Part shown: one piece after another, positions 27,449 through 52,950 of the stretch
Layout of the letters: each line of letters starts with the position of its first letter
Position numbering within the stretch: the stretch's first letter is position 1
NCBI RefSeq assembly: GCF_009914755.1
Contig: NC_060944.1
DNA: 64,000 nucleotides
Direction: 5' to 3' (one strand)
From: the human T2T-CHM13v2.0 reference genome, Homo sapiens
The notes under the pieces: generated by a model
Database searches by the model: none
What the model was told of the DNA's origin: nothing
Seen by the model: only the letters and a program-made list of their open reading frames with translations
Translations under genes and position numbers: made by a program

Positions 27449-27485
27449 AAAAGAAAAACAAAGAAAGAAAGAAAGAGAGAAAGAA
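27179..27485 (+). repeat. Polypurine tract (unit 2)
   Basis: Seen directly; paralogous position to the unit 1 tracts. Confidence 0.95.
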
Positions 27486-28069: not shown

Positions 28070-31075
<3,006 letters not shown>

Positions 31076-31711
31076 GTTGGCCTTTTGACTTTATCAACTA
31101 GTGAAGTTTTGACACAGTCATGAAGACATTAAGACATGAATTAAATGAGAAAAATTTTTCACGAATTAAACTTAAAGCCTGTGGTGCACAAGGAACTAGA
31201 TTTTTCATAAATCTAGAAATTATCTTGCTAATAGATCAATATCTGGCTCTTACTTTCTGTCTGTGTGTGTTTCAATGTTAATGTAGTAAAAGTAAACACT
31301 TCAAATGCACCCTTATCTGAACATGGCTGTGAGGAGTCGGTTTCAAATGTTCTGGATACACAGTGGGAAGAGGGAAATTGGTCAGTCCTGATGCAGTCCC
31401 TGGGAAAAACAATGCCCTCCTATTACCTAAAAATTCGACAGTATAAAGTAAGAATTAGGAAGAGCCAGGACAGTTCTGCAACACCCCGAAAAAAGGAAAA
31501 TCCATGGGGGCTCTGAAAAATTACACCCCAGAAGTTGTTTCACGTGGTTGCTTCCTGGAAGTGAAAGAAAACAGCTGGTGCTTCCGGGTCAAGTTGAGGC
31601 ACCTCTGATCTCCAGCCCCCGGAGCCACAGCACCACCTGCTGGTGGGGCCCCGCTAGAGCTGACATAGACAGGTCCAGCCTCCAGGTGCGCCCAATCCCT
31701 TTTCTTGCATT

Positions 31712-32090
31712 ATGAAGCTAAGCAGCCTCTCTCAACTCACTGTGACCGTCCCCCTTTGCCTCCTCCACATGGCCCAGCCTGGAGCCCTGAAAAGTGGCGG
31801 GTAGGGCGTGGCGACGCGTACTGTGGCTGGAGTTGGGGAGCATTTCCTCTGAGGAGTCCATGCGACGACCTGGCCCTCATGCCTGGAAGTCACTTGGTGT
31901 CCCCGACTCACCCTGTGGCATTTTTCTCCAGCTGCACAGAAACCTGAATGTTGCCCAGAGTTTTCTGTTGCCTGCCCTTTCATCCTGTTACCCATGTGCT
32001 GGCAGGATAAAATTTGCAAAGGGGTTAAATGGTGTTGCTACTACGAACGTCGGCATTAGTGTATGGAGTCCTGCTGGACTTTGGATTGAG
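31712..32090 (+). pseudogene. WFDC15-like WAP-domain pseudogene, copy A (exon 1 31712-31800, exon 2 31932-32090)
   Basis: Exon 1 reads MKLSSLSQLTVTVPLCLLHMAQPGALKSG, with donor GG|GTAGGG. It is 89 nt long, so out of phase with exon 2. Exon 2 follows TTCTCCAG and reads AQKPECCPEFSVACPFILLPMCWQDKICKGVKWCCYYERRH*CMESCWTLD*, a WAP four-disulphide-core pattern with a premature TAG at 32057-32059 and Cys7 replaced by Arg. Confidence 0.88.
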
Positions 32091-32836
32091 GTTAGGAGCC
32101 CCAGATCTGCTGCCCGTGAAACCTTCCTGCAGAAGCATTGTCTTAGAAGGAGTTGAGAACTTCATGTTCCCCTAGAAAATCGTTGTGATCAGAGGTTTTA
32201 AATTGGGTCGACCCATAGATCTGCCTCTGGACAATGAAGCAAGACCTCCTTGCTTAGATTATGCACCTTCCATTTCACACAACGGACTTCACCCTTCTCC
32301 TCTCTGTAAAGAGGATATTTCAGCAAGATTCATTAAGATCCTCAACAGTTACCGGGTTTTTATTATTTTTTATTCCTATTTTCTACAGCTTATAATAATG
32401 AAACACTTTCCTCTTCATATTTACATTGTGAGTGTTTATATAATTTCACACTTCCTTAGGATGGCTTGCCTAGAATCCCTGATCCCCGTCCTTGATTCCT
32501 GGATAGCACATGCCAGTGTTCTTTGGAGAATACATAAGAGGATCCAGACAATGGCGTCCTATTGCCTCAAAATCTGCTGGATGAAGTAAAAATGATGAAG
32601 AGTTCTGTAACACCCTGAAAGGAGGCAGTCCATGAGGGCTCTCAGAAGTTACATCCCAGTTGTTTCACGTTGTCTCTTCCTGGAGGTGAAAGGAAACAGA
32701 TGGTGCTTCCGGGTTAAGCGGAGGCACCTCTGACCTCCAGCCCCGGGAGTCAAAACGCCATCTGTTGATGGGGCCCCGCCAAAGCTGACATAGACAGGTC
32801 CAGCCTCCAGGTGCCCCCACACCGTTTTCTTGCATT

Positions 32837-33328
32837 ATGAAGCTGAGCGGCTTCTTTCTACTCTCTGTGAACATCCTCCTTTGCCTCTGAATGACCCAGC
32901 CTGGAGTCTTGAGGAGTGCAGGTAGGGCCTGGCGACCCTGGGTGTGGCTGGGGTTGGGAACGTTTCCTCTGAGGAGTCCATGGGGTGACCTGGCCTGGAA
33001 ATCACACATTGGTGCCCACTCATCCTACGGCTTTTTTTTTTTTTTTTGGAGTCTCGTTCTGTCACCCAGGCTGGAGTGCAGTGACGAGATCTCGGCTCAC
33101 TGCATCCTCCGCCTCCTGGATTTAAGCGATTCTCCTGCCTCAGCCTCCTGACCTATGGCGTTTTTTCCAGCTGCACGGAAACCGGGATATTGCCCAGAGT
33201 TTGATCTTGACTGCCCTTTCACTCTCTTACCTATGCGCTGGCGTGATAAGAGTTGCAGGGGGTCAAGAAGTGTTGCTACTACAACTGTCGGCATCAGTGT
33301 ATGGAGCCCTGGTGGACTTTGGATTGAG
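32837..33328 (+). pseudogene. WFDC15-like WAP-domain pseudogene, copy B (exon 1 32837-32921, exon 2 33171-33328, candidate exon 3 from 33912)
   Basis: Exon 1 (85 nt, phase 1) reads [27 protein letters not shown], with TGA at 32888-32890. Exon 2 reads [30 protein letters not shown], then a 1-nt deletion in the G run 33258-33262, then [20 protein letters not shown], followed by donor G|GTGAGG. It resembles rodent WFDC15B (MKLLGLSLL...KPGYCPE..CPF) as recalled. Confidence 0.92.
33031..33150 (-). mobile_element. 5'-truncated Alu in intron 1 of pseudogene copy B
   Basis: T run followed by GGAGTCTCGTTCTGTCACCCAGGGCTGGAGTGCAG...CCTCAGCCTCCTG; absent from copy A. Confidence 0.92.
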
Positions 33329-33911
33329 GTGAGGAGCCCCAGATCTGCTGTTCTCCTTGCTGCCCCTAACTCCTTCCCTCAGAAGCATTTGTCTTAGAGA
33401 GAACTGAGAACTTCCCATGCGTTTAGCAACCGTTGTGAGCAGGGCTTTTAAATTGGGTCAGTCCACGCATTTGCCTCTCTAAAGTGAAGGAGGAGGCTCA
33501 ACAGACCTCTTTGCTCAGATATGCACCTTCCACTTCACATAATGGGCATCACTCTTCTCCTCTCTATAACTCTCTATAATGTCGACATTTCAACAAGATT
33601 ATCTCTAAGGTACTCAATAGTTACTGGATTTTATTATTTATTTTCAAATCCTTTTACTTACAGTTTACAATCATGAAACATTTTCCTCTTTACATTTACA
33701 TCGTGAGGTAAGTTTATAATTTCACAATTCCTTAGGATGGCTTGCCTAGAGTCCCTGATCCCCAGTCCCTGACTCTTTGGCAGCACCTGCCAGTGTTCTT
33801 GTGAGGAGAATACCTAACAGGAATCACGCCTCAATGCCCCCGGGACACAAAACCATGTGCCCTGTACATTTTGCATCTTCCTATATCTCTGGTTTCCTGT
33901 TCTCTCCCAAG

Positions 33912-34085
33912 ATGGAAAGCCCTTCTTAACCAGGACTGAGGAGACACAAGTGCTACAGGCTCAGTCTGGGATAACTGGTCTCCATGTTGTCCATGATCGC
34001 TCAGGCCCAGAACTTCCTTTTAGCAAGAGTTAAATGCTTCTTACTATGATAACAAGACGAAGAAATAAAGCGTTGTATATTTAAA
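33912..34085 (+). other. Candidate non-coding exon 3 of the WFDC15-like pseudogene
   Basis: A long pyrimidine tract ends in CCCAAG at 33911, and AATAAA lies at 34064-34069. This fits the layout with a stop at the end of exon 2 and a non-coding last exon, as seen in SEMG1/2. Confidence 0.55.
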
Positions 34086-34984
34086 ACTCTTTGAAAATCT
34101 AAGTCTGCTGGATTGATCTCTTGCTCTCCCTCTCTACTCAGCCATGTTGCATAATCCCTTAGGAACTGTAAAATGGACAGAGTTACTGTTTCACATTTAG
34201 TTTCATCAATTCCTGCACTTGTGTTTTTCTGATATATTTGTCTCTTTCAATATCTCCTGACACTCAGATTCTCTGTTGGTCAGATTCCAGGTGCATTTTG
34301 GAGTTAAATTCTCTGGGTTTGCATCCTATGAATGGCATGCCGATTAATCCTGTAATGGAAGAGCAAGGCATTTTTGCTTCAGTTTTTCTGGTACTACTGC
34401 TGGTGGCCTTTCCAAGTGTTGAAGTAATATGATCTGCGATTGGATTTGGAACTTAGGGTCAGAAACTGAGCAAGATGTACTTTAGTTCTAGGTACTTTCA
34501 TTCCTAAAAATTGAGCCACCCTAAATTAGGAGAACAAAATCCTTGTGGTTCAGCCTACATCCCTTGAGTCTTTGCTTGAGGGTTGGGCCCTAGGTCTACC
34601 TAATAATGAAGTGTAATTAGCCATGAATTTTCCAAATTTATAACTCTGTGCTTCATTCTTCCTTAACTCCCACAAATGTTGCAGAGGTCTGGGAAAGTAA
34701 TTTTCCAAAATTTTATTTATCTCTGACAAGTATCTTAACAATTTTGAAAAACTACTTTTTCCCAAGCATGTTTTAAACTGACATCTAATAATTTTATCAT
34801 CATTGCATAGTTTCAAGAGATAAAAATTTAGGTATATGATAAATGTTGTCATTTAAATCAAATGGGTATCTTACTCTATGAGGTTTCTAATAGAATCTAA
34901 CTACAATGTTCATTTGTTAGTAACATCTATTAGGGAAGAAAAAAAACATGTCCTTTTTCCTCATCATCTCTCTATCTTTCACAT

Positions 34985-35344: not shown

Positions 35345-38300
35345 CTTCTACTAATTTGGGTTTGGCTTGTTCTTGCTTTTCTAGTTTTTTGAGATGCATT
35401 GTTAGGTTACTTATTTGATATCTTTCCAGTTTTTTTATGTAGGGGCTTATTGCTATTAACTTGCCTCTTAATACTATTTTTGCCATGCTCCATAAGTTTC
35501 GTTTTTTTGTATTTCTACTTTTGATTGTTTCAAGGAATTTTTAATTTTATTCTTAATTTCTTTTTTCATCCACTGGTCATTCAGGAGCATGTCGTTTAAT
35601 TTCCATATATTTTGTATAGTTTTGAATGTTCCTGTTGTTATTGATGTCTAGTTTTATTTCCTTGTGGTCATATAAGATACTTGATATGATTTTGATTTTT
35701 TAAAATTTTTTGAGACTTCTTTTGTATTTTAGCACTTGGTCAATCCTGGAGAATGTTTCATGTGCAGATACAACAAAAGTGCATTCCATAGCTGCTGGGT
35801 AAAATGTTTTGCAAATGTCTGTTAAGTTCATTTGATCTATAGTACAGTTTAAACTTGATGCTTCTGGGTTAATTTTCCATCTTGATTATCTTTCCAATAC
35901 TGAGAGTAGGGTGTTAAAATCCCCACGTATTATTGCGTTAGAGTCTATCTCTCCCTTCAGCTCTAATAATGTTCACCTTATATATCCAGATGCTCCAGTG
36001 TTGGGTGCATATATATTTATAATTATTATGTTCTCTTGCTGAATTAGTCCCTTTACTATTACATAATGTTCTTATTTGTCCCTTTTTCCAGATTTTGACT
36101 TGAAGTCTATTTTGTCTGATATTAGTATAGCTACTCCTTCTTGCTTTTGGTTTCTGTTTGCATGGAATATCTTTTCCATACCTTCAATTCAACCCCATAT
36201 ATGTCTTTACAGGTGATGTGAGTTCTCGTGGGCAGGACACAGTTGAGTTTAGGTGTTTTACCCATTCAGCCAGTCTACATATTTTAAATGGTGAATTTAA
36301 TCCATTTATATTCGGGGCTGTTGTTGAAAGGTGAGGGCTTAAACCTCTTATTTTATTGATTGTTTTCTGATTGTTTCATATATCTTTTGTTCCTTACTTC
36401 CTATCTTATTGTAAGTTTTGGGCTGGGTTGTTTTCTGTGGTGACAATTCTTGATTCTTTTCTCTTCCTCCTTTGTGTATCGGCTCTGCCAGTGAGTTTTA
36501 GAGTTTCTTAAACTTTCATGATGGTGGCAGTTGTCTTCTCACTTCCAGACATGACTCTCTTGAAAATATTTTGTAAAGCCAGTCTAGTGGTGATGAATCC
36601 CCTTAGCTATTGCTTATCTATGAAGAATTTTATTTCTCTTTCATTTCTGAAAGATAATTTTGCTGGGTATTCTTGTCCACTAGTTTTTTTTTTCTTTTAG
36701 TAATTTGAATATATTATTCCATTCTCTTCTGGACTATAAGGTTTTTGCTAAGAAATCCTCTGTTAGTCTGATGAGGATTTCATTATATGTGACATGATGC
36801 TTTTCTCTTCTTGTTTTAAGAATTCTTTCTTTGTCTGTGACTTTTGACAATTTGACAATAGCGTGCCTCAGAAAGGACCTGTTTGGGTTGAACCTAAATG
36901 GGGTGTTTTGAGCTTCCTGGACCTGTATGTCCATCTCACTGCCAATACTTGGGAAGTTTTCAGCTATTTTTAACATGTTATTTATACATTTTCCATTCTC
37001 TTTTCTTCTGGAATGCCCGTAATGTGAATACTTGTTCACTTAATTTTGAACAAATGGTGTCCCCAGAATCCTGTAGGCTTTCTTCATTTATTTTTATTCT
37101 TTTTTATCTTTTTGTCTGCTGATATTATTTCAAGTATCCTGTCCTCTAGTGTAGAAATTATTTCTACTCTGTTGTTAAAGTTCACAGTTGTATTTTTTTA
37201 TTTTATTCATTGAATTCTTCAACTCTAGAATTTTTGTTTGGTACATGGCTGCGTGGCCAGCCTGGGAGTGTTCCTGCCAGGGGTAGCCCATGAGGCTGTT
37301 TCTCAGGCCCAGGATGTGGTCACACAGCTGCTTGGCTGACCCGGGTGTATGTCGGCTGGGGGCAACCTGAAAGACTGCTTCTCTGTCCTGGAATGCAAGC
37401 ACAAGGCTGTCCAGCTGGACTTGGGGGTCTGTCTGCTGGAGGTGGCCCCAGAGGGCTGCTTCTTAGGTCTAGGATGCAGGGCACACAGCTGATTGACCCT
37501 CCTGGGGGCATGTCTGCCAGGGGTTGACCACAGGGCTGCTTCTCAAGCCTGGATTACAGGTGCAAGGCTGCTTGGCTGGACTCAGTGCATGTCTGCTGGG
37601 GCTTTCTGTTTCTCAGCCCCAGGATGTGAATTAATGGCTGCTCAGCCCACCTGAAGGCTTCCCCTGGTGAGGAAGCCTGTGGTGTTGTTTCTCAGTCCCA
37701 GGGCATGGCTGCACAGCTGCTCATGCAGCCTAGGGCATGTCTGCCAGGGGCAGCCCACAGGTCTGTATCTCAGGCCCTGATTGTGGGTGCAGGGCCATTG
37801 GGTAGGCCAGGGGCTTGTTTGAGTGGGTGGGGCACCATGGAAATGTTTCTAATCCCTAGACATGGATGTGTACCTGCTTCTCAGGCCTTGGAATGTGTCA
37901 ACTTCTCAGAGGCCTGAGCACCACTTTCACTCAGAGGAGGGTGTGCAGCAGTTTGACTGGTTCAAGGGCAGGTTTACCCTGTGCGGGACTGTCATGCCAT
38001 TCCTCCAGGCGGAAGTGAGGGCAGCGGGGGTTGTTTGTTCTACAGGACCAGAGTCACAGCCAGTCCTGTATCCACACTTGATGCTGCTGGGATTATGGCA
38101 TTCAGCCACTGGTGTGGGCCTGGTGGAATGAAGACCAAGCCCTGTTGAGGGAAAAGTGCAGTGGCTACTGGGCTCCACAGGAGGGCGCACTCCACAGGTG
38201 GCTCTGGTCTCAAGATGGCACCTGCTGCAGCATCTTGGCTGACAGTGGGTAGGTGGACTATGAGGAGTGCACCCCTTGTGCTTTCAGTTCAAAGCAATGC

Positions 38301-38690
38301 ACCTGCATGAATTCCTAGCAGCGTTTCAAACGGCTCAGGGCTTGTGTGTGAGTACTGCAGGATTCTCCGTAGTAAGGATTTTAGGTGTTTGTGGTGGTAG
38401 TGGAGACTAGTGCGGTTCTTTTGCTTACCTTTTCCCCACAATAGGATGTCCTCCTGACTCCAGATAGATCGGATCCAGGTGTGGAAGACAGGGCGGCAGA
38501 TGCTGGATGCATCCATGCTGCCCTGCTAGACTTCCAATCCCCACAGGTGCATCTCCACTCCCCTGCTATATTCGAATACTCTTCCTTGGACTCTCTAATC
38601 GAGTTTCATCAGTTTATTCATTGCTTTGGTACTTTCTTGTGGGGAGAATGAGTGCCTGTCTTCTATAGTCAGTCGTCTTGGTGACATCAC
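35345..38690 (-). mobile_element. Old L1: ORF2 5' part, ORF1 and 5'UTR block (unit 3 copy)
   Basis: Peptides AKIVLRGKLIAISPYIKKLERYQISNL and ENFPSIGSEMDIQVQEAQ. 37240-38690 aligns with 680-2228. Confidence 0.88.
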
Positions 38691-38749
38691 TGAGCTAAAT
38701 TTCTTTATACTGCATATCCCATCCTGAATTATTGGAGTCTTTTTTAAAA

Positions 38750-39576
38750 TAATTTTTATTCTTAACCTTCATACTAAAGATATGATTTGCATACCACCAT
38801 TATAGTATTAGAGCATTCTGAATTTATGTAATTACTTCTACTACTAATGAGTTCTATACTTTTAATTTTTCTATTGTTACACATGAGTACTCTTTCTTTC
38901 ATCTTTTCTTTAGCTTTTCTTGTAAGAGAGGGTTCCCCATCCGCCCCCCACCCCCACTCAGCCCACATAGCAGGAGGTGAGCAGAGAGTGAGTGAGCGTT
39001 ACCACCTGAGCTCTGCCTCCTGTCAGATCAGGGGTGGCATTAGTTTCTCATAGGAGCAGGAACCTTATTGTGAACTGTGCATGCAAGGGATCTAGGTTGC
39101 ATGCTCCCTATGGCCCCCACTGCCCCGCCCCACCACCCCCTCCCTCCCCACCCCTATCCATGGAAAAATTGTCTTCCACGAAATCAGTCCCTGGTGCCAA
39201 AAGGTTTAGGATCACTGTTGTAAGATATGCCTGTTAGTGATGAAGTTCTTCAGCTTTTGATTGTCTAGGAAAGTATTTCTCCTTCATTTCTGAAAGACAA
39301 CTTTTCTGGGTACAGTATCCACGGATAACAGTTTTTTTTTTCTTCATCACTTTGAATATCTCATGCCACTCTCCTTCTGGCCTTTAAGGTTCCTGTTGAG
39401 AAGTTTGTATGTAGGTATATTGGAACTCCCTTATATGTTATTTGCTTCTTTTCTCTTGCTGCTTTCAGGATCCTTTCTTTGTCTTTGATCTTTTATAGTT
39501 TGACTATTATATGTATGTCTGGTATTTTTTGGACTGAATCTGATTGGTGACCTTTGACCTTTCTGTACCTTGATAT
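38750..39576 (-). mobile_element. Old L1 fragment homologous to 4320-5335
   Basis: CCTTCATACTAAAGATA...TGATTGGTGAC is colinear with the L1 upstream of SEMG1. Confidence 0.8.
38928..39217 (+). mobile_element. MER1B-like hAT DNA transposon
   Basis: ...CATGGAAAAATTGTCTTCCACGAAATCAGTCCCTGGTGCCAAAA; perfect 8-bp TSD TTGTAAGA at 38920-38927 and 39218-39225. Confidence 0.92.
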
Positions 39577-40144
39577 ATCAGGGGGTTTGCTAGGGCCTGT
39601 TGCAATACATTTCTCTGGTATTTCTGAGAGATTGTTAGTCCCTAATCTACTGGTGCCATCAATTCCACAAATCCACAGCAGCCCAACCCGTCACTTGGTT
39701 CAAGGACTGTGCTCCTCCTACAGTATCCATTAAGATCTTAAGATCTTGTACCAGCGATTGATGTGGCAACTCTCTACCATTTCAGTAAGCATGACTGGGT
39801 AAAACAATCTGTGAATAGACATACCAGAGGATGGTCTAAAAGAGTTTTGGGGGTTGGGAAGTCTTAAAATGGAAGCTCTGCTGCCTATACTGTCTTCTTC
39901 CCCTCTCCTAAGAAAGTTTCCAGGGAAGGATAAACCTCTAGGAGAAGAAGCCAGAATGGGAGAATAGAAAACCTTTGGACTGGGGATAGGAGATCTGGAT
40001 TTTAGTTCCAGCTCTGCCATAAGAACCTGTGCATCTTCAATTAAATCTGTTTTCTCTCCAAGCTTAAGTTCCTCATCTGCACATAGAAAATTTGGTGTAG
40101 TAATTCTGATCATGCGTGCTAGCCCAACATTCTGGGAGTTCATT

Positions 40145-40328
40145 TAAAAAGAAGAAAGAAGGAAAGATAAAATAAAGAAAGGAGAGAAAGGAAGGAAGAA
40201 AGAAAGAAGAAAGAAAAAAGGAAGAAAGAAGGAAGAAAGGAAGAAGGAAGGAAACAAAGAAGAAAGGAAGAGAGGAGGAAGGAAGGAAAGAGTGAGAGAG
40301 AAAGAAAGAAGAAGGAAGGAAGGAAGGA
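40145..40328 (+). repeat. Polypurine tract (unit 3)
   Basis: Seen directly. Confidence 0.95.
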
Positions 40329-40855
40329 TCTTCTCTATCAGATCTAAATTTTGCCTGTAGGTGTGTGGTAACAGACATCATCACAGTGGCATGAGAACCT
40401 GTCTCCACTGCACTGTTCCCTAGAGCACGGATGCCCTGTGCTCAGCCACCTGCCTTATTTTTCCAGCCCAGCAATTGAAGAGGAGAGACCATGGTGGGCT
40501 TAGGGGCCTTAGCATCAGGGAAGCTATAATTCCCTGCTAGAGTCTGGTGACAAGATTCTCACTTTTATGTGTGGCCAGAGATACATTCAACAGTGTTCTT
40601 GACACACTGGTAATGGTATGGAGTCAGGAAGGGTATCTAAATTGATATGCCAACAAGCAAAAGAGCCAGAGCCATAAATGCTCTGGGAGAATACACTCAA
40701 GAATATGCTGGTTATTAGCAGGCGAACAATTAAAATTTTGGATCTCCTAGCAAAGTTAACAGTTCTATACATAAATGTACAATTAGCATGAACCTTGGTT
40801 TTCACCACTTACATAGTCTTGAGCAGCAAGGTCTCTGATGCTGAACTTCTGCATC

Positions 40856-41144
40856 TTTTTCTTTTCTTTTCTTTTTTCTTTTTTCTCACTCTGTCACCCA
40901 GGCTGGAGTGCAGTGGTGTGATCTTGGCTCACTGCAGCATTGACCTGATTTTCCCACCTCAGCCCCCTGAGTAGCTGGGATTACAGGTGCACGCCACCAT
41001 GGCCAGCTAATTTTTTGTATTTTTAGTAGAGATGGGGTTTCACTATGCTGCCCAGGATGGTCTTGAACTCCTGAACTCAAGCAATCTGCCTGTCTCGGCC
41101 TCCCAGAGTGCTGGGATTACAGGCATGAGCCCCCACGCCTGGCC
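40856..41144 (-). mobile_element. Alu with internal deletion
   Basis: T-rich tail and Alu body; degenerate TSD GAACTTCTGCATCTT / GACCTCCTGCGTCTT. Confidence 0.95.
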
Positions 41145-41822
41145 AGACCTCCTGCGTCTTAATGTGGGAATAATAATAACCATGTCATATAGATTTTCAG
41201 AGGTATTGAGTGAGATTATCTCAGCCCCAGTGCTCAATAAAAAGTTCCAGCATGACAACAAATTTGGTAATAATAATAATAAAACAATCTTTTATTATAT
41301 CTTAATATTGAGGTAAAATATATACAAAGAAAAGCACAGATCTAATGTATTTATTTGAATGAGATTTGGCAAATACATATGTGTAGTTACACAAAATCAT
41401 ATGGAGATATAGAACATTCTCATCAACCTTGAAAGTTGTCTATGACGCATTCAAATTTAATTCCAACCCTTCAGGGGCAATCATTATGCTGACATCTACC
41501 AATTTAAGACTTGCCTGTTTTTTCTCATTTAAGAAGCATTTATTGTTATAAATGCACTCAGGCACTGTAAGACATAACATAAATGAAATAATTTTCAGAT
41601 AAAAGCAACTGCTTATTATTTTATCCTGCCTTTATATTATTTTTATAAACTGCCTTCAGAAGGTATCATTCATTACCATACCAGTTGGGTGGTCTGTAAT
41701 ATATTCCCACAAGGTTTGTCTTCCCTTTATTTCTTCTTTTGTTCTTACAAACATGTATTCTACAGTGTTGCTGCTTCTAAGTTCATTGATTTTCTCTTAT
41801 GTATTATTTTGATATGCAATGC

Positions 41823-42100
41823 TTTTTTTTTTTTTGAGATGGAATCTCCCTCATTGTGTCACCCAGGCTGAAGCGCCTGCAACCTCCACCTCCCAGGCTC
41901 AAGTGATTCTTCTGCCTCAGCCCCCAATTAGGTGAGATTACAGGTGTGTGCCACCATATCCAGCTACTTTTTGTATTTTTAGTAGAGATGGGGTTTCACC
42001 ATGTTGGCCAGGCTGGTCTCGAACCCCTGACCTCAAGTGATTCGCCCATCTTAGCCTCCCAAAGTGCTGGTACTACAGGCATGAGCCACCATGCCCACTC
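41823..42100 (-). mobile_element. Alu (S-type)
   Basis: TSD TTGATAT(G/A)CAATGC at 41809-41822 and 42101-42114. Confidence 0.96.
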
Positions 42101-43117
42101 TTGATATACAATGCTTCTTAACCCCCTTCCTAATAAGATCATTTCTTTTTAACAATGTATATAATATTCTGGACTGAAGTTCAATCCCACAAATTATCAG
42201 TGATGATAACAATTTATAATTACCATTCTTGGTTAAAATCTCAACTTAACATGAGCATTGGCACAAATTCTATAAACAAGCCACTTTTAAAAGCCCCAAT
42301 AAAGTTGACTATATAATTAAAGTGACCTAGTTCAAATAGAAACAAGTGACAGTAGAAGTGAATTAATATTATATGTGCTACATGGTAGTGTAGTTATGAT
42401 ACTCATAATTTTGTATTGCCATTGTAGATATTTTCTTCTAGTGCTTTCAAGTTACCAACAGATATTTATATTCAAGATTTAAGAAAAATATTTCAGAATT
42501 CCCAGGAATTCTTTAAATTAAAGTTGTTCTTAAAGTTTATCCAACATTCTTCACACTGCTTACTCATTATAGACATGGTTTGATGGTTAAGAAACATTGA
42601 GTTTATCACATTTACAAAGAACTGTAGGTTGTGAATATTCATACTCTCAGAAATATGCTAGTTATTAGCAGGTGAACAATTAAAATTTCGGATCTCCTTA
42701 GCAAAGTTAACAGTTCTATACAGAACTGTAAACCAAAATTGCCAATTTCAGAACTTATTTGCTTCCAAACTTGTTATTTCCTGAAACACCACTCATAGGA
42801 TTTATATATATATTCACTTGTACGTCTATTAAAATTAATTTTATTTGCAAGAATGACTCACTATTAGTAGCATACAGAATGATAAGCATATACTCCTAAT
42901 GTGGCAACAGGTACAAGCAACATGATTAGATGGTGACTGCTTTTTCCTTAGTGCTCCTGATTCATTCTCTGAACACATTGACCTTAATTTTTGGCTCTAC
43001 ATGTCAGCATTTTCTGGTCTTTGCTTTAGACTTCTAACCAGCAATGTTACTATTTTGAATCCCAAGGTTTAATTCTTACAAAAGAATGTAAAGACTATAA
43101 TACTTTTTTTTTTTTTT

Positions 43118-43425
<308 letters not shown>

Positions 43426-43439
43426 AAACACTGGCCAAG

Positions 43440-44278
43440 CTCTCAATGTTAAGTAGAAATGGTGAAGACAGACATCCTTGCCTTCTCCTAACCTTAAGGA
43501 GAAAACATCCAATATTTTACCATTAGAGATGATGTTTATCAGCGGCATACCAAGGATTGTGGCAGTGGGAGTGGTTCATCTGAGGAGGAGGGAGTGTTTA
43601 TCTCTGACTCTGTTTAAAATTGCCAGCACATAGTGATAATATACAGTACAGCTTTTTAAGCCACTTTTATTATTATTCTTAAATTCTCTACAATTGGGGG
43701 ACCTATTTATTGCTTACAACTGGGGTGAACTCCTTCCAATAACCTCCTTCCACTTCAGTACACCACTAAGATATGCTTTAAGTTGAATATAGTGCCCTTT
43801 ATCATATTGAGAGGGAGAGCTTCTCTTCCTTGCAGGTGGAGAAGTTTTATAATAAATGGGTTTTGGATTTGTCAAATACTTTCTCTGTTGAGATGATCAT
43901 ATAGTGAATTACACTGACTAATTTTAATACAAAACATATCCTGAATGTGTGTCTCATTTGACCTTAATGTATAATCTATTTAACATATTTTTGGACTGAG
44001 TTTATGACTACTTGGTTAGAGATTTTTATGCCTATGTCTATGAAGGATGTTAGACTGTAAGTAAACTTTTTTATAATGTTCTTCCCAGGTTTTAGTATCA
44101 CAGTTATCTTAGGCTCATAAAAGAAGTTGGGAAGTGTTTTCTCTGCTTCTCTTGTCTTAAAACATTTTTGTAGAATGTATAATTTGTAGATGTTTAATAG
44201 CATTTACCTGTGAAGCCACCTGGACCAGCAGTGTACTTTTTGGAAAGGTTTTTCATTAAAAATTTGATTGCTTTAACA
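43440..44278 (-). mobile_element. Old L1 ORF2 fragments, with a possible small hAT-like insert at about 43540-43768
   Basis: Peptides resembling L1 ORF2 (EKTLPNFFYEPKITVILKPGK). Confidence 0.6.
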
Positions 44279-44470
44279 TAGGAGTCAACAAACTTCAGCA
44301 AAGAGCCAGGAAATGAATATTGTAGGTTTTATATGCCTTAAGATCTTTATTGCAACTCCTTGTCTGTACCACTATAGGACAAAGGCAGTCAAAGATCATT
44401 CTTACCAATGGATGTGGTTGTATGCCAACAAACTTCACTTACAGAATCAGAAGTGGTAATCTAGTCTCCC
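44279..44470. mobile_element. MER58-like hAT element
   Basis: GGAGTCAACAAACTT...GGATGTGGTTGTATGCCAACAAACTTCACTTACAGAA resembles MER58A. Confidence 0.6.
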
Positions 44471-44539
44471 AGTCCAGGAATCAAAGCAAGTGTGTTTAAC
44501 TTATATTTGTTTAGTTATTCAGTTAATTATTTGTGCTAC

Positions 44540-47500
44540 TTTCTTATTGAGATACAATTTACAAACCATGACATGCACCTTTTAAGGTGTACAATATAGT
44601 GGTTTTCAGTATTTTGATAAGCTTGTGCAACCCTCACCACTTGTTAATTCCGGAACAACTTCATTACTCCCATGAAGAACCCCTATACCTGATGGCACTC
44701 AATCCTTCCTCCTACCTTTACTTCTCCCTTGGCAACCACTAACCTGCTTTTTATGAATTGACTTATTCTGGACACTTTATATTAATTAAAGTATATAATA
44801 TGTGGCTCATTGCATCTGACTTCTTTCATGCAGAATTATGTTTTCAAAGCTCATCCATGTTGTAGGGTGGGATCTTTTTTTTTTTTTTACGTTTTATGTA
44901 TGAATAATATTTCACTGAATGGATACATCACATTTTGTTTATCCATTTATCCATTGGTGAACATTTGGATGTTTCTAGTTTGTATGTACTATTATTAATC
45001 CTACTATGAACATTTATGTGCAAATTTTGTGTTAAAATGTTTTCAATTACCTTGAGTATAATTCTTAAAGTGGAACTGATGAGTCACATGATAACTCTAT
45101 GTTTAACTCTTCAAGGAACTGCCAGACTGTTTTCCACAGAGGATGTACCATTTTATGTTCCCACCAGCAATGTATGAATGTTCCAGATTCTCCACATCCT
45201 CACTAACACTTGTTATTTTAGGTTTTTTTTTTTAAGATTATAGCTATCATAGTACATGTGAAGTGGCTTCTCGTTGTGGTTCTGATTTGCATTTTCCTGA
45301 GGTCTAATGATATCACCCATCATTTTACATGCTTATTGGCCATTTGTACATTTTCTTTTGGAGAAATGTCTGTTAAAATCTGATGCCCAGTTTTTAATCA
45401 TGGTTTTTGTCTTTTATGGTTGATTTTAGGAGTTCTTTTTGTATTTTGAATACTAGGCCCTTATCAGATATAAAATTTGCAAATATTTTCTCCCATGTCT
45501 GTGGGTTATCTTTTCATTTCTTATTAGTGCCCTTTGACTCACCAAAGTTTTTAACTTTAATCTATTTTTGGATCTATTATTCCTTTTGTTGCTTGTGCTT
45601 TTGGTAGCATATCTAAGAAATTGATGCTGATTACCAGATCATGAAGATATACATTTATGTTTTCCTCAAAGAGTTTTGTAATTTTAGTTCATATATTTAG
45701 GTCTTGTTTTATTTGGAGCCCATTTTTGTACTTGATATGATGTAACAGTCCATGTATATTTTTTTGCAGGTGCATATCCAGTTTTTCCCCATTATTTGTT
45801 GAAAAGACTACTCTATCCCCACTGGATAGTTTTTGTACCTTTGTTGAAAATAAGACAATTTAAAATGTAATGGCTTATTTATGGATTCTCAATTCTATTC
45901 CTTTGATATATTGTGTTTATCCTTATGCTAGTAACACAACATCTTGAAATTGTAGATTTGTAGTACACGTTGAAATAAAAAAATGTGAGTCCTCCAATTC
46001 TGCCCTTTTTTTTTAAGACTGTTTTGGCTATTCTGGGTCCCTTGCATTTGTATACAAATTTTGGGATTCACTGATCTATTTCAACAAAAATTCACCTGAA
46101 GTTTTCTAGGGATTGCATTGAATTTATAGATCAATTTGTGAAGAATTACCAGCTTGGCAACATCGAGTTTTCCAATCCATGAACACAGTATAGCTTTCTA
46201 TTTTGGGGGTCTTCTTTTATTTCCTTGAAAAATAATTTTCCATTTTCAGTATAAAAGTTTCTCCATTTTTTGGTTAAATGAATCCCTAATTATCCTATTC
46301 TTTTTATGCTATTGTAAATGAAATTTTATTCTTAAAACCATAGAGTGTTGTATTTTGACATTATGTCCTGAACCTTGCTGAGGTCATTTATTAGCTCTAA
46401 TAATATTTTGAGGGATTCTTAAGGATTTTCTGTGTATGTATGTGTGTATATATATATATATACATGTACATATATGCGTGTATATATATACATATATATG
46501 CGTGTATATATATATATACATATATATGCGTGTATATATATATACATATATATGCGTGTATATATATATACATATATATGCGTGTATATATATATATCAT
46601 CATGTCAGTATTTCTTGCAGTCAGGTTGATGGTGATGAACTCTTCAGTTTTTGTATATCCAGGAATGCCTTAATTTTTCCCTGACTTCTGAAGAATAGAC
46701 ATACCAAGATATAGAATCCTTGGTTGATAGGTTTTTCTTCTGCCGTTTTTAATGTGTTCTCTCACTACCTTCTGGCTTTCATGATTTTAATGAAAAATTA
46801 CTGTTTAGTTTATTAACTGCTCATGATAAGTGGCTTGTCCCTTGCTTTCAAAATTTTCTCCTTGCCTTTGTCACTAATATTTCGATCTAGGTGTGGATCT
46901 CTTAGAGATTTTCCTACTTAGTGTTCTTTGAGCTTCTTAGATGTAGAGATTAATGTTTTTAATCAAAATAAAAATTTTCGTCGTCATTCTATCTTCATAT
47001 ATTCTTTCTGCGCCTTTCTCTTTCTTCTCTCTCCTGAGATTCCCATTATGCATATGTTTTTACACTAGATTGTGTTCTTCAGGTCTCTGAGGCTCTGTTC
47101 ATTTTTCTTAATTATTTTCTTTATTGTTCCTTAGAGTGTATAATCTCAAATGACCTGTAATTAAGTTAGCCGATCCTTTCTTCTGTTTCTGTCTTCTGGT
47201 GAACCCCTGTTTTGAATTTCTATTTCATTGGTTGTACTTTACAACTTCATTACTTATCTTTAATTCTTTCTATGTTGTAAGACATTATTCTCATACATTC
47301 CTTTAGTCTTTTGTCCAGAGTTTCCTTTAGTTATTTCAGTGTATTTATAATAGCTGATGTCTTTGTCTACTAATCCATCATCTGAGCTCCTAAAGGATCA
47401 TCTCTGTTCATTGTTTCCCTTCCCTTCTCTGTATGGGCAATATTTTTTGTTTCTTTGCATGTCTCGTAATTCTTTAATGAAATTGGACTTTTTACATAAT

Positions 47501-47760
47501 ATAATGTGGCCAGTTTGGAAATCAGATTCTCTCCCCAGGGTTTGTTTGCACAGTCTTTGCTGTTGATTACTTCCTTAGTAACTTTCCTGGACTAATTTGC
47601 TAAAGTCTGTATCGTGTGTCATGTGTAGCCACTAAAGACGCTGTTCCATTAGCTTAGAGGTCAGCTCATGATTGGACAGAAATGATCTTAAATACTAAAC
47701 CAATAAATCACCTGGACTTTTCCAAGGGGCTGCATGTGTATCCATTGAGATACACTGTCA
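44540..47760 (-). mobile_element. Old L1M 3' end, ORF2 and ORF1 fragments
   Basis: Typical antisense L1 3' sequence (CCCACCAGCAATGTATG, GATTTGCATTTTCCTGA). Confidence 0.8.
46433..46597. repeat. AT-rich minisatellite, unit approximately TATATATATACATATATATGCGTG x5
   Basis: Seen directly. Confidence 0.95.
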
Positions 47761-48473
47761 ACATTCCACTGGGAAACTTGCAACTTTATGTTGTATTTCA
47801 CCTCCTGTTCACATAGAGACTTTAATTCAGCCAGAGGTGAACAATTAGGGTCATCTGAGGTCTTTCCTTAGCATGTACACAGCCCTGGGGCAAACACACA
47901 ATTCTGTGCAGGAGTGTGGTATTCTAAAGTCCCACAGATGTGACAGAGATTTTCTTTAAGCACCTGGAAATCTTTCCTACCTTTTCCTTTTTTGTTTTTT
48001 GGTCAGCCTCTTGTTAGCTCCAATTGGCCTCACCGTCGGAAGTAGCTGTGATGGCAAAAAATTGCCCCAGAAATAGCACTGTCCACATAGAGCACACTCT
48101 GAGTTAGACGAGGTAAATACATGCTATGAAAAGGGTGCCTTTTTAGAGAGCTGACATACAAATGAAATAGTGACAGTTTTCCGGGGACAGAGCTTTCGAA
48201 AGCAGAAAGGAAATCCTCCCGTGCAGGGGCTGCTGGGCTGCTGGTTTTCACAGCCACTGTGGAGCAAACCTGGTGGCTTTCAGGCTACCACACAGCTGGG
48301 CACAAAGATGGGAATGGAAAAGTTATACTGCCACTAAACTTTCTGTTCTTGCTAAAGTTTTCTTGTTTTTCTTGATGATTCTTAATGATGCCACTCCTTG
48401 GATTGTGACAAACCTTTGGCTGAATTCCAAAATTCTGGGGAAAAAAAGTTGATATTGAAAATATATGTGAGTA

Positions 48474-49466
48474 CAGGTTGAGCATCTCTACCCAGAAATC
48501 TGAAATCTGAAATGCTCCAAAATCCTAAAAGTTTTGAGCACCAACATGAAGCCAAAAGTGGAAAACTCCTCTCCTGACCTCATTTGATGGGTTGCAGGCA
48601 AAACGCAGGCTGACAGTGATGAAGCTGATGTTCGTAACACTGCAGAAAAAGTGCTGATAGATGACATGGTGAAAAAGTGTGATGGGCTTATTGAAGGACT
48701 GAAGCAGCCTGTATTCATACCAAAACAAGAAATCATGTAAGTTTAAAAATCAACAAGAAATTTCTAAGACAAAAAACATTGTTAATGAGAGAGATGACTC
48801 TGGAGAAAACATTTTTAAAAGTCATCCAGCAGAATGCCTCCTCATCTCTAGAGGATCCACTTCCTGGTCCCTCAATTGCTTGTGATGTCTCTTTTCACCT
48901 ACAAAAATAAAATACAGTGACCAATAATCGTTTAATCAAAACACAGCATCGTAGATGGAGACTGAAATCCTGCTGCTGTTGCTTCTTGCTGTTGTTTAAC
49001 AGCTGGGGCAGGTATTTTGGTGATGCTACTGTGCTGCTTAGTTACCCTGAACACATTATTTTCACAGTATTAATGGTATGTCGTATTTTTATTGTTAAAT
49101 ATTTATGGGTGAATAAGTGTAATAAAATGATTGCTTATTGGTAGCATATAAATTCGAGTCAGATACAATGGTGATACTAAACAATCACAGATTGTCCACA
49201 TGGGCGGCTGAGATAGGGACAACTTTCTTTCTGATGTTTCAGTGTATACAAACTTTGTTTCATGCAGGAAACCGGTAAAAATATTGCATAAAATTACCTT
49301 CAGCCTATGTGTATAAGGTATATGTGAAACACAGATAATGTTTACACTTGCCTCTCATCCCTAAGATATCTCATTATTTATATGCAAAGATTACAAAATG
49401 TGAAAATATCCAAAATTTGAAAAATTTCTGGTCCTAAGAATTTTGAATAATGGATTCTTAAACTTA
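48474..49466 (+). mobile_element. Tigger4/Zombi-like Tc1-mariner element
   Basis: Starts TA|CAGGTTGAGCATC...GAAATCTGAAATGCTCCAAAATC, has a degenerate inverted end, and contains a transposase-like internal remnant. Confidence 0.85.
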
Positions 49467-50553
49467 TTCTCCCTCCTTTTATGAAGGAGCAGATTTTACT
49501 CCACCGTTGTGAAAGTAGTTCCCTCTGCTGTATGGTTTTTGTATAGGCTTGCCATCAAATAAGTGAACTTCTAATGTTCTGTCATTATTTTCTCATTTAT
49601 CATGAAGAGATAAGTGACTCTTTCACACATTCTATAGCCAATACGAAGATAATCATAACATTTTCCCCTGTACTCCATTAATGAGAAGTATCCCATTGAT
49701 TTACTTTTAAATGTTACACCAATCATAAATTGTTGACATAAAACCTTACTTGTGTATGATGTTTCATCATTTTTATATATGACCAAATTCCCTGTGTAAA
49801 GTTTTGTTTAGGATTTTTGCCTTTATGTTTATAGCAAGGCTGGAAAATTGTTTTCCTTTCATGTAATATCCTTCTCATGTTTCGGTATCACAGAATTGCA
49901 GTGCATATCAAATTAGTTTGGAAACAGAAAGGTCAGTGTGTGGGGTTGCAAACAAACATCTTGAAAATATGAGTGCAGACACTTTAAATATTTAAAGTAC
50001 AGACACTTTAAATATGAGTGCAGGCACTTGAAAATATGAGTGCAGGCATATTAAATCAGTTGGGAGGGATTTTGTTTTTGTAAATTTGGACTGAAACTCA
50101 GTGAGGACATGCCAATTCAGAGTTAGAAGAAAACAGCAGATTTACACAGGGAAAACACTCAACGTGTGGAGGTAGCCCCAAGTTTGTGCTAGAAAGAAAG
50201 GTCGGTGTTGGTAAATAGAGCAGCTACTCCAGAGAGCTTTCCCTCATCATCTCTCTGCCTCCCACATCAGGTCCCAATTCTTCTGTGTGCATTAATAAAT
50301 CTACTTCTTACTATTGCTGAAGTCAGATATGTTTTTAGCTACCAAGCAAGCAGGAGGAACATCCATTTTTAGAATAGTGTAGAGAGGACATGAAGGTTTA
50401 TCTGGCCCAGATTCACATTCCAAAATGACTTCAAGTTAGTCTTTTGAATCCATCAACTAATGAAGTTTTTACACAGTCATGAAGACATAAAAGCAGGAAT
50501 TAAGGAAAAAAGCATTCATTATAAAACTTAAATTTCAGTCCCATGGTGCACCA

Positions 50554-52950
50554 TGAATTGACACCATCATGAAAGCATTTGAAACTATAAAACTCACTGA
50601 TAGAACCAAAACACAAGGAAGAAAGAGAAAGGAATCAAACCTTATTATTACAGAAAACCACCCAACCACAAAAATAAACAATAAGAAGGGAAGTAAAGAG
50701 CAAAGGATATACAAAAACAACCAGGAAACAATCAATCAAATGATAGGAGTAAGTACTCACCTGTCAGTAATAACCCTGAATATAAACAGATTAAATTCCC
50801 CATTTTAAAAATATAGACTGGCTAAAAGGATTAAAAAACAAGACCCAACTATATAGTGAAAACTAACCTCACCTGTAAAGACATACATAGGGTGAAAGTA
50901 AAGAGAAGGAAAAATATTCCATGAAAACAAATCAAAAGCAAGCAGGAGTAGCTATATTTATATCAGACAAAACAGACTTCAAATTAGAAACTGGAAAAAA
51001 GAGACAAGGAATAGCATTATATAATTATAAAGGGACTAATTTAGTAAAAGAATATAACAATTGTAAATATGTATGCACTCAACAGTGGAGCGTCCAGATA
51101 TATAAAGTAAATATTATTAGATATTAAGGAATATATAGACCCCAATACAATAATAGTTAGGGACTTCAACACCCTACTGTCAGCATTGGAAAGATTATTT
51201 TAACAGAAAATCAACAAAGAAATATCAGATATAAACTGCATCATAGACTAAGCAGACCTAACAGACATTTACAGCACATTTCACCAAATAACTGCAGAAT
51301 ACGTATTCCATCAGCACAAGTAACAATGTCAAAAGTTAGCCATAGGGTACAAAACTAGTCTCAAGAATTTTAACAAATCAAAATCATACCAAGTATTTTA
51401 TCTGACCATAATGGAATAAAACTAGAAAGCAATAACAATAGGAACATTTAAAAGTATACAAATACATGGAAATTAAACAACATGCACCTGAATGATAATG
51501 GGTGAAGAAAGAAATTAAGAATACAATTTCAAAATTCCTTGAAATAATCAAAAATATAAACACAACATACCAAAACCTATGAGACCCAGCAAAAGCAGTA
51601 TTAAGAGGCGAGTTTATAGCAATAAATGTCTACATTAAAAAACTAGAAAGGTTTCAAATAAACAACCTAATGATGCATCTCAAGGAACTGGAAAAGCACA
51701 AACAAGCCAAACCCAAAATTAGTAGAAAGAAAGAAATAATAAAGATCAGAGCAGAAATACACAAGAGAGAGACTAAAAATTACAAAAGATCAACAAAACA
51801 AAAAGTTGGATTTCTGAAAAGATACACAAAACTGGCAAACCATAAACTAGACCACCTAGGGAAAAAAAGAGAGAAGACTCAAATAAAATCAGAAATGAAA
51901 AAGCAGACATTACCACTGGTGACACAGAAATACAAAGGATTCTTAGATACTATTATGAGCAACTATAAGCTAACAAATTGGAAAACCTAGAGGAAACTGA
52001 TAAATTCTTAGAAATGTATAACCTATAAAGATTGAACCAGAAAAAAATTTAGAAACCATGAGCAGTTCAATAATGAGTAATGAGACTGAATCAGTAATAA
52101 AAAGCTTCCTAACAACAACAACAAAATCCCAGGAATGGAAGACTTCACTGCTGAGTTCTACCAAACTTTTAAAGAAGAGTTAACATCAGTTCTTCTTTAA
52201 ACTATTCCAAAAAATTAAGGAGGAGAAAGGAGAAAATTCTCCCAAACTCATTCTATGAGTCCAACATTACCCTGATACCAAAACTAAATAAGGGCACGTG
52301 GACACACACATGCACACACACACCAAAAAACTACAGGCCAATATTCCTTATGAACATAGATACAAAAATCCTCAATAAAATACTAGCAAACTGAACCCAA
52401 CAAGACATTAAAAAGATAATACACTATAATCAAGTAGGATTTATTCCAGGGATGAAGAATGTGTTTCAACATATATAAATCATTTATGAATGTTTTAAAT
52501 AAATGTGATACATCACATCAACAGAATGAAGGACAAAAAGTCCATATGATTATCTCAATAGATGCAGAAAAATCATTTGGTAAAATTCAATATCCCTTCA
52601 TGATAAGGACTCTCAATAAAGTAGGTATAGAAGAAAAGTATCTCAACCCAATAAAGGCCATATAGACAAACCCACAGCTAACATCATACTGAACTGGAAC
52701 AAGAAAAGCATGCCAACTCTCACTGCTCTTATTCAACTTAATATTAGAAGTCATAGAGCAATTAGGAAAGAGAAAGAAATAAAAGCCTTTCAAATTGGAA
52801 AAGAAGTCTAATTATCCCTCTTTGCAGATAACATAATTATATCTACAGAAGAACCTTTAGACTCTGCAAATAAACTCTTAGAACCAATCAATGAATTCAG
52901 TAAATATGCAGGATACAGCATCAACATACAAAAATCAGTAGCATTTCTAT
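50554..52950 (+). mobile_element. L1 inter-ORF region and ORF2 5' two-thirds
   Basis: Peptides MIGVSTHLSVITLNINRLNSP, QKQAGVAIFISDKTDFK and HMIISIDAEKSFGKIQYPFMI. Confidence 0.93.

What the first reader, a model, noticed from the sequence alone, without database searches (positions are those of the whole stretch)
35345..50553. A third semenogelin-type cassette whose gene has been deleted
Seen: SEMG1 and SEMG2 each sit in a unit that reads antisense L1 5'UTR block, gene, unique 3' flank with GA tract, old L1 mosaic. A third, more diverged copy follows. Its L1 5'UTR block (37240-38690) matches 680-2228 and 20090-20900, and an L1 piece (38750-39576) matches 4320-5335. It then jumps straight to the 3' flank at 39577, equivalent to about 11920 and 26614, about 260 nt after the SEMG poly-A site. 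Homology continues to 50553, equivalent to 31190, about 300 nt before the WFDC15-like duplication in unit 2. Inference: a SEMG/trappin-WFDC15 cassette was triplicated. Unit 3 lost roughly 6.5 kb including promoter and all three exons, and units 1 and 3 lost their WFDC15 ends, each being cut off by an L1 at 16045 and 50553. This implies an extinct third seminal-protein gene that exon-based annotation cannot see. Its identity (SEMG-like or PI3/trappin-like) cannot be read from this window.
Basis: partly seen in the sequence, partly recalled or inferred. Interest (0 to 1): 0.85.

Follow-up and report, generated by a model that had tools for sequence, protein, structure and literature searches.

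The report
Gene-less third semenogelin cassette relic
Between SEMG2 and SLPI lies an old third copy of the DNA that follows the two human semenogelin genes, with no gene left in it; it is most likely the relic of a lost gene copy, an ordinary by-product of turnover in this gene cluster.

Summary
Window 39574-50557 is a third, colinear, same-strand copy of the SEMG1/SEMG2 3' flank. Its unique blocks occur only at these three places in the genome. It is older than the SEMG1/SEMG2 split: K2P 0.28-0.31 against 0.20. No SEMG or PI3 promoter, exon or intron sequence is left in 31000-54000.

- The first ~67 nt (39577-39643) are inverted relative to units 1 and 2.
- The L1 5'UTR block is no closer to the unit 1 copy than random family members are.
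- The 359 nt of antisense L1 ORF1 touching the junction (39218-39576) is sister to the unit 1 copy, against 20 to 21 of the best genome-wide copies (UFBoot 98 and 96).
- The distal end (50212-50557) is the start of a WFDC15-like module.

Because both sides of the gene were copied, a ~6.6 kb deletion with a micro-inversion is the best reading. Whether an intact third gene ever existed cannot be told from human sequence alone. This is birth-and-death evolution of a known tandem family. I found no description in the papers I could read, but the key primate paper (Hurle 2007) is not held.

The parts
35345..38709 (-). L1-X3: antisense L1 holding part of ORF2, ORF1 and the 5'UTR block (37240-38709). 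Its 3' side is truncated at 35345. It lies upstream of unit 3 and is not shown to belong to the duplicated cassette.
   Evidence: Pfam L1 ORF1 domain on the minus strand at 36737-37039. Colinear with a chr17 copy used as a ruler. At least 40 genomic copies at 68-74% (5'UTR block) and 71-77% (ORF2 part). Not sister to the unit 1 block.
38704..38931 (-). L1 ORF1-region fragment (left piece), unusually diverged; its origin is unclear.
   Evidence: At most 70% identity to any of 22 other sequences, 65% to unit 1, and not sister to it.
38932..39217 (.). 287 nt insert that splits the L1 fragment; part of it is another repeat.
   Evidence: Other genomic L1 copies run straight from query 232 to 519. 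One chr10 locus matches 38966-39217 at 80%.
39218..39576 (-). L1-Y3: antisense L1 ORF1-region piece, paralogous to unit 1 4501-4684 plus 5180-5333. It ends where unit 1 carries a (TA)n/(TG)n microsatellite (5335-5472).
   Evidence: Sister to the unit 1 copy with aLRT 95.9/UFBoot 98 and 97/96, shared branch 0.058. Nine shared derived sites against 1-7 in 40 controls. Sequences read.
39577..39643 (-). Inverted fragment of about 67 nt: reverse complement of 11916-11983 and 26609-26679, the first bases of the shared flank. It lies exactly at the junction.
   Evidence: (83% over 65 nt, 82% over 71 nt) and alignment A1. In units 1 and 2 the segment is bounded by short imperfect inverted repeats (read).
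39644..40136 (+). Flank block A, unique sequence, equal to 11974-12464 and 26667-27171.
   Evidence: Three places genome-wide. K2P 0.37 to units 1 and 2, against 0.20 between them.
40137..40332 (+). GA-rich tract shared by all three units (12465-12647 and 13316-14052 in unit 1; 27172-27489 in unit 2).
40333..40847 (+). Flank block B (40333-40686 and 40777-40847), with a unit-3-only ~90 nt piece between the two parts.
   Evidence: Matches only units 1 and 2 genome-wide (78-79%), plus one local 90% copy at 42641-42730.
40848..41147 (-). Alu insertion found only in unit 3.
41148..41551 (+). Flank block C, equal to 14484-14847 and 27912-28313.
41552..44891 (.). Unit-3-only 3.3 kb: two Alus (41823-42097, 43119-43430), an old repeat (44544-44865) and at least 1.1 kb of single-copy sequence.
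   Evidence: No direct repeats of 40 nt or more.
44892..47696 (+). Flank blocks D to H, an old repeat mosaic shared with units 1 and 2: 44892-45170, 45722-46439, 46589-46860, 46862-47696. Includes a unit-3-only stretch (45171-45721) and a microsatellite (46440-46588).
47697..50211 (.). Unit-3-only 2.5 kb spacer; 48471-49466 is an interspersed repeat.
50212..50557 (+). W3: the first ~345 nt of the WFDC15-like module, upstream of its exon 1. Equal to 31074-31195 in unit 2 and to the inverted copy W0 at window -58369..-58705.
50556..52055 (+). L1-Z: sense L1 (ORF2 N-terminal part) that ends the homology.
   Evidence: ORF2 residues 290-392 encoded at 51583-51987. Inverted match to 35346-36532 at 77%.

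Best explanation
An ancestral cassette was copied in tandem. It read: antisense L1, then a SEMG-lineage REST gene, then ~4.6 kb of 3' flank, then a WFDC15-like gene. One early copy gave unit 3; the other copy later split into SEMG1 and SEMG2. In unit 3 a single complex rearrangement removed about 6.6 kb, equivalent to 5334-11915 of unit 1. That stretch holds the rest of the L1, the promoter and all three exons. The same event flipped the adjacent ~67 nt. The left breakpoint lies at an AT-rich L1 site that is an expanded (TA)n/(TG)n microsatellite in unit 1. Later events were three Alu insertions, other insertions or spacer differences, an L1 that cut off the WFDC15-like part at 50556, and L1 turnover upstream. 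What remains is a non-coding relic with no expected function of its own. Shown: the three locus-specific flank copies, their order of divergence, the absence of gene sequence, the inverted fragment, the sister relation of the junction L1 piece, and the WFDC15-module fragment. Inferred: that the loss was a deletion after a full copy existed, that it was one event, and the dates.
For: Blocks A, B and C match only the three units genome-wide, and no fourth copy exists in chr20:46.84-47.03 Mb. At least nine blocks are colinear and on the same strand. On 1554 shared sites K2P is 0.199 (u1-u2), 0.278 (u1-u3) and 0.307 (u2-u3). Site patterns are u1=u2 222, u1=u3 134, u2=u3 106. L1-Y3 (39218-39576) is sister to the unit 1 copy against the 20 best of 6418 candidates (aLRT 95.9/UFBoot 98). 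It is again sister against 10 nearest to Y3 plus 10 nearest to Y1 plus L1-X3 (97/96). Y1's best match is Y3, 78.3% against 74.6% for the next. The Y1-Y3 terminal branches (0.10 and 0.21) fit the flank depth. In unit 1 the same L1 runs on colinearly past the break point (5525-5912), so unit 3 is the truncated, derived state. The inverted 67-mer sits exactly at the junction. The distal W3 fragment shows that the copy reached the WFDC15-like module. Loss of genes by deletion and SEMG2-like pseudogenes are documented at this locus in other mammals (PMC7556508, sections 20 and 32 read).
Against: No gene remnant of any kind is left, so the gene's former presence is indirect. The L1 5'UTR block gives no support: unit 1 is the least similar of 21 sequences at 70.0%. 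The left L1 piece 38704-38931 is not sister to unit 1. With it included, support for the Y1+Y3 pair drops to aLRT 91.6/UFBoot 42. The split into left and right parts was made after seeing that result. Only 40 of thousands of L1 candidates were scored per search, so a closer unsampled subfamily cannot be excluded. Three sequences cannot be rooted without a clock, and block G shows u1-u3 (0.236) as close as u1-u2 (0.243). No outgroup genome was available.
Confidence: 0.5

Rival explanations
1. The copy was born without a gene. A replication-based, template-switching duplication copied the upstream L1 piece, skipped the gene, flipped 67 nt and went on into the flank. Under this reading no third gene, intact or broken, ever sat here.
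For: The junction combines a jump and a short inverted piece bounded by short inverted repeats. By general knowledge, that pattern is typical of template switching. There is no gene remnant. The sister L1 piece and the flank are explained equally well.
Against: Nothing in the human sequence separates this from a later deletion. It needs a complex event at the birth of the copy, while simple tandem copies (SEMG1/SEMG2) are the rule at this locus.
Confidence: 0.2
2. Only the flank and the WFDC15-like module were duplicated. The copy happened to land beside an unrelated antisense L1 of the same subfamily as the one upstream of SEMG1.
For: The L1 5'UTR block and the left L1 piece behave like independent copies. 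L1 junction positions differ between units. A 5'-truncated antisense L1 naturally ends at its right side, as at 39576. L1 identity to unit 1 is within the range of random copies over the longer stretch (third of 22 for Y3, eighteenth of 22 for Y1).
Against: Over the 359 nt next to the junction, the unit 1 copy is sister to unit 3 with high support in two neighbour sets. There are more shared derived sites than in any of 40 controls. The break point coincides within a few bases with the unit 1 microsatellite.
Confidence: 0.25
3. The shared flank is an interspersed repeat or a chance similarity, so there is no third unit.
For: The distal blocks 45700-47750 are old interspersed repeats with thousands of relatives.
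Against: Blocks A to C have only the three local copies. The local copies are also the top matches for the repeat-derived blocks. Order and strand are conserved over at least nine blocks.
Confidence: 0.01

Closest known systems
[quoted passage not shown]
   Same: Same locus, same strand and same 3' flank architecture: unique block, GA tract, old repeat mosaic. Unit 3 is a third branch of the same duplication series.
   Different: No promoter, no exons and no introns. It is older than the SEMG1/SEMG2 split. There is a 67 nt inversion at the junction.
SEMG2-like pseudogenes and deleted REST genes in Glires (ground squirrel, rabbit, mole-rats), PMC7556508
   Same: Birth-and-death of REST genes between WFDC5 and SLPI, including loss by deletion (passages and sections 20 and 32 read).
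   Different: Those relics were recognised through remaining gene homology. Here only the surroundings of the gene remain, so a search based on exons cannot find it.
WFDC15 (mouse Wfdc15a/b; predicted primate WFDC15A-like proteins)
   Same: The module that follows flank 2 and begins at the end of unit 3 encodes a WAP domain. Its best protein match is named WFDC15A-like in chimpanzee.
   Different: All three human copies with exons (W0, W2a, W2b) are broken. Unit 3 keeps only ~345 nt upstream of exon 1.
Gene loss by deletion or unequal crossing-over in seminal-protein families (KLK2/KLK3 in primates, PMC3542562)
   Same: The same evolutionary regime, birth-and-death driven by reproductive biology (abstract and passages read).
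   Different: A different locus; no comparative data were available here.

Membership tests
REST gene or pseudogene (SEMG/PI3 type) | Three-exon structure: signal-peptide exon, large coding exon, non-coding exon 3 | tested here: not met
   No DNA similarity to SEMG1 5335-11980, SEMG2 20900-26680 or the PI3 region in 31000-54000, other than the inverted 65-71 nt, Alus, a microsatellite and short L1 bits. tblastn with the SEMG1 and SEMG2 proteins gave a best E of 2.1.
REST gene or pseudogene (SEMG/PI3 type) | Position between WFDC5 and SLPI | tested here: met
   Unit 3 lies between SEMG2 and SLPI (annotation).
Locus-specific segmental (tandem) duplication | Several colinear blocks, same strand, copies confined to the locus | tested here: met
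Locus-specific segmental (tandem) duplication | The copy includes sequence on both sides of the gene (full cassette) | tested here: inconclusive
   The right L1 piece is sister to unit 1. The 5'UTR block and the left L1 piece are not.
Interspersed repeat | Many dispersed copies genome-wide | tested here: not met
   Blocks A to C have three copies only. Met only for blocks D to H taken singly.
WFDC15-like gene or pseudogene (for the distal end of the cassette) | WAP four-disulfide core exon | tested here: not met
   Unit 3 keeps only the 5' flank of the module (50212-50557). The WAP exons are in unit 2: 31853-32056 scores Pfam WAP 20.0 bits against a cut-off of 20.8, and 33170-33324 carries a frameshift.
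Deletion with inverted fragment (template switching or multi-break repair) | Inverted copy of adjacent sequence exactly at the breakpoint, with short inverted repeats at its ends | tested here: met
   The mechanism itself cannot be tested with these tools.

The most novel reading that the evidence does not exclude
Unit 3 marks the place of a real third semenogelin-lineage gene that was expressed in early primates or their ancestors. That gene may survive, intact or as a pseudogene, in strepsirrhines, tarsiers, colugos or tree shrews. It may even be the counterpart of one of the extra rodent Svs genes. If so, the ancestral primate ejaculate had three clot-forming proteins, each paired with a WFDC15-like inhibitor gene.
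Probability: 0.3. Interest if true: 0.5.

Novelty: new member of a known kind. Interest (0 to 1): 0.33.

Why it matters
It adds one unit to the duplication history of the human semenogelin locus and places the first duplication before the SEMG1/SEMG2 split. It shows that the duplicated unit paired a clot-protein gene with a WFDC15-like inhibitor gene. It also gives exact coordinates (the L1/flank junction at 39576/39577) where other mammals can be checked for a lost or surviving seminal-protein gene. More generally, it is an example of a gene copy visible only through its surroundings, which exon-based annotation misses. There is no sign of present function.

Tried and rejected
1. RefSeq soft-masking was of little use for naming repeats: 38 intervals covering 13.6% of the window.

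2. A chr17 L1 copy fetched as a ruler (L015) covers only the 5' end, about 2.3 kb, before Alus interrupt it. It fixed the order ORF1 then 5'UTR, but gave no full L1 coordinates.

3. My first reading of the L1 pieces as sense ORF2 was wrong. The Pfam ORF1 hit on the minus strand corrected it.

4. Pfam found nothing for six other L1 fragments or for four more. PDB sequence search then identified two of them as L1 ORF2.

5. PI3 as a fourth flank copy: PI3 and SEMG share only 69 nt around the poly-A site by blastn, so the PI3 flank cannot serve as an outgroup.

6. LTR-type direct repeats in the two unit-3-only stretches: none of 40 nt or more.

7. Inverted L1 pair 35346-36532 / 50556-51727 as an inverted duplication: they are each other's best match, but the margin is small (887 against 825 bits). 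Left unexplained.

8. Literature. Seven full-text searches and passages or sections of PMC7556508, PMC2831891, PMC3209443, PMC3542562, PMC5487211 and PMC11665854 gave no mention of a third human semenogelin-type unit. Hurle et al. 2007 (PMC1800918) and Ferreira et al. 2013 (PMC3603315) are not held. Lundwall 1996 (structure of the semenogelin locus) and Clauss 2005 are known to me only by recall. Any of these four, or their supplements, may already describe this.

9. Dates. The clock depth of unit 3 is about 1.5 times that of SEMG1/SEMG2. Translating that into 60-100 million years rests on recalled substitution rates and on the presence of two SEMG genes in marmoset (a title seen in the reference list of PMC3209443).

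Full report
WHAT IS THERE. An unmasked self-comparison of the window and a comparison with 192 kb of surrounding reference show that unit 3 repeats the DNA downstream of SEMG1 and SEMG2, in the same order and on the same strand.

Against unit 2 the blocks are:
- 39637-40325~26667-27369
- 40148-40686~27286-27842
- 41144-41522~27912-28284
- 44892-45085~28390-28974 (in pieces)
- 45755-46439~28997-29684
- 46589-46860~29676-29952
- 46862-47696~30252-31064
- 50433-50557~31074-31195, after a 2.7 kb gap

Unit 1 shares the same blocks up to 16044. There a sense L1 begins; ORF2 residues 803-933 are encoded at 16041-16457.

NOT AN INTERSPERSED REPEAT. Searched against the whole reference, three stretches match only themselves and the two SEMG flanks:
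- 39577-40145
- 40333-40847, which also has one short copy elsewhere inside unit 3, at 42641-42730
- 41148-41551, apart from a ~160 nt element with two other hits

The distal blocks (45700-47750) are old interspersed repeats with thousands of relatives. Even so, the three best non-self matches are units 2, 2 and 1 (73, 73 and 77%), against 66-71% elsewhere. No fourth copy lies in chr20:46.84-47.03 Mb.

AGE AND ORDER. I aligned 1554 sites in blocks A, B, C and G.
- K2P distances: 0.199 (u1-u2), 0.278 (u1-u3), 0.307 (u2-u3).
- Site patterns: u1=u2 222, u1=u3 134, u2=u3 106.

Under a clock, unit 3 split at a depth of about 0.146 and SEMG1/SEMG2 at about 0.10, a ratio of about 1.5. Block G is an exception, with u1-u3 at 0.236 against u1-u2 at 0.243. 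None of the Alus is shared between units. Absolute dates of roughly 60-100 million years rest on recalled rates.

NO GENE. Sensitive blastn (word 7) of SEMG1 5335-11980 and SEMG2 20900-26680 against 31000-54000 finds only a microsatellite, Alus, short L1 bits and the inverted fragment described next. The PI3 region adds nothing. tblastn with the SEMG1 and SEMG2 proteins gives a best E of 2.1. PI3 hits only the WFDC15-like WAP exons.

THE JUNCTION. Forward homology starts at 39644 (=11974/26667). The 67 nt before it (39577-39643) are the reverse complement of 11916-11983 and 26609-26679, at 83% and 82%. In units 1 and 2 this segment is bounded by short imperfect inverted repeats. To its left, unit 3 has an antisense L1 ORF1-region piece that stops at 39576.

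THE L1 QUESTION. The upstream layout of each unit is:
- Unit 3: one L1 (35345-38709: ORF2 part, ORF1, 5'UTR block), then a second L1 fragment (38704-38931, a 287 nt insert, 39218-39576).
- Unit 1: a 5'UTR block (626-2251), then a long L1 (about 2240-5912) that carries a 495 nt insert and a (TA)n/(TG)n microsatellite at 5335-5472.
- Unit 2: 19517-20884, which then jumps to the equivalent of 7063.

The junction positions of these pieces differ between the units.

I tested paralogy with trees against the best genome-wide copies.

5'UTR block (37937-38598 against 1487-2144, plus the 20 best of 156 candidates):
- The tree is a star.
- The unit 1 copy is the least similar of the 21 sequences to unit 3, at 70.0% against 73-76%.
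- This gives no support for paralogy. The block is either an independent insertion or was inserted just before the duplication.

Junction piece (39218-39576 against 4501-4684 plus 5180-5336):
- Units 1 and 3 are sister against the 20 best of 6418 candidates (aLRT 95.9/UFBoot 98, shared branch 0.057).
- They share 9 derived sites, against 1-7 in 40 control pairings.
- I fetched a second neighbour set: 10 copies nearest to unit 3 and 10 nearest to unit 1. Over the longer stretch that includes 38704-38931, the pair remains but support falls to 91.6/42.
- Splitting that alignment, the right 359 nt give 97/96. Unit 3 is then unit 1's best match, 78.3% against 74.6% for the next.
- The left 228 nt are aberrantly diverged from everything (at most 70%) and are not sister. 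I made this split after seeing the weaker result.

In unit 1 the same L1 runs on colinearly beyond the break point. Unit 3 is therefore the truncated state.

THE DISTAL END. The last block (50433-50557) is not flank. It is the start of a module that in unit 2 runs from 31075 to 34980 in two tandem copies. That module has an inverted paralogue outside the window, between WFDC12 and PI3 (window -58369..-60801). Unit 3 keeps 50212-50557 of it.

The module is WFDC15-like:
- It has a WAP-like ORF (Pfam 20.0 bits against a cut-off of 20.8).
- It is 95% identical to a chimpanzee protein named WFDC15A-like.
- It matches intact 80-residue proteins in orangutan and marmoset.

PMC11665854 (passages) lists no WFDC15 among the human genes. 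All three human copies with exons are broken.

INTERPRETATION. The piece next to the junction comes from 3.6-4.4 kb upstream of SEMG1. The flank beyond the junction comes from 255 nt downstream of the gene. The copy therefore spanned the gene, and unit 3 lacks the 6.6 kb between them.

The simplest account is a tandem copy of the whole cassette, followed by one complex deletion that also flipped 67 nt. Its left break fell at an AT-rich L1 site that is a microsatellite in unit 1.

I cannot separate this from a copy that skipped the gene at birth. A flank-only duplication next to an unrelated L1 of the same subfamily remains possible if the L1 tree is misleading.

On identity, the evidence favours the SEMG lineage and not PI3. 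PI3 and SEMG share almost no detectable DNA similarity, while unit 3 keeps 70-80% identity to the SEMG flanks.

COMPARISON AND NOVELTY. Birth-and-death of REST genes at this locus is well described in Glires, including pseudogenes and deletions (PMC7556508). A gene-less third human unit is a new member of that known kind.

I found no description of it in seven searches or in the papers I could read. The most relevant primate paper (Hurle 2007), two older locus papers and all supplements were out of reach.

Noticed in passing
outside the window: window coordinates -58369..-60801 (chr20:46,873,199-46,875,631); loci L002/L009: An inverted paralogue (W0) of the WFDC15-like module lies between WFDC12 and PI3, under lncRNA LOC101929863. 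It is 71-79% identical to 31075-34980, and its WAP exon carries a frameshift.
   Followed up: partly
window 32837-32923 and 33170-33324 (W2b); 31712-32086 (W2a): Two tandem WFDC15-like pseudogenes sit downstream of SEMG2 and overlap exons of lncRNA LOC105372630. W2b is closest to intact 80-residue proteins of orangutan and marmoset. It has a stop in exon 1, a Cys-to-Arg change and a frameshift. The chimpanzee protein model reads through the same shifted frame.
   Followed up: partly
window 35346-36532 and 50556-51727: The L1 pieces that bracket unit 3 are inverted relative to each other. Each is the other's best match in the genome (77%; 887 bits against 825 for the next). The margin is too small to call an inverted duplication.
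   Followed up: partly
window 40691-40779 and 42641-42730: An 89 nt stretch absent from units 1 and 2 has a 90% identical second copy 1.9 kb away, inside the unit-3-only 3.3 kb.
   Followed up: no
window 43440-44540: About 1.1 kb inside the unit-3-only stretch has no other match in the genome. That stretch may therefore be ancestral sequence lost from units 1 and 2, not an insertion.
   Followed up: no
window 1448-7063 versus 20882-20985: Unit 2 lacks about 5.6 kb that unit 1 has between the L1 5'UTR block and the SEMG upstream region. This points to a second large deletion, or to insertions in unit 1, upstream of a SEMG gene.
   Followed up: no
window 12465-14052: The GA-rich tract after SEMG1 has expanded into a tandem array of about 1.6 kb, with many offset self-matches in 13316-14052. 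The tract is about 0.3 kb in unit 2 and 0.2 kb in unit 3.
   Followed up: no
window 38704-38931: This L1 ORF1-region fragment is far more diverged from all sampled copies (56-77% by window) than the piece 287 nt to its right.
   Followed up: partly
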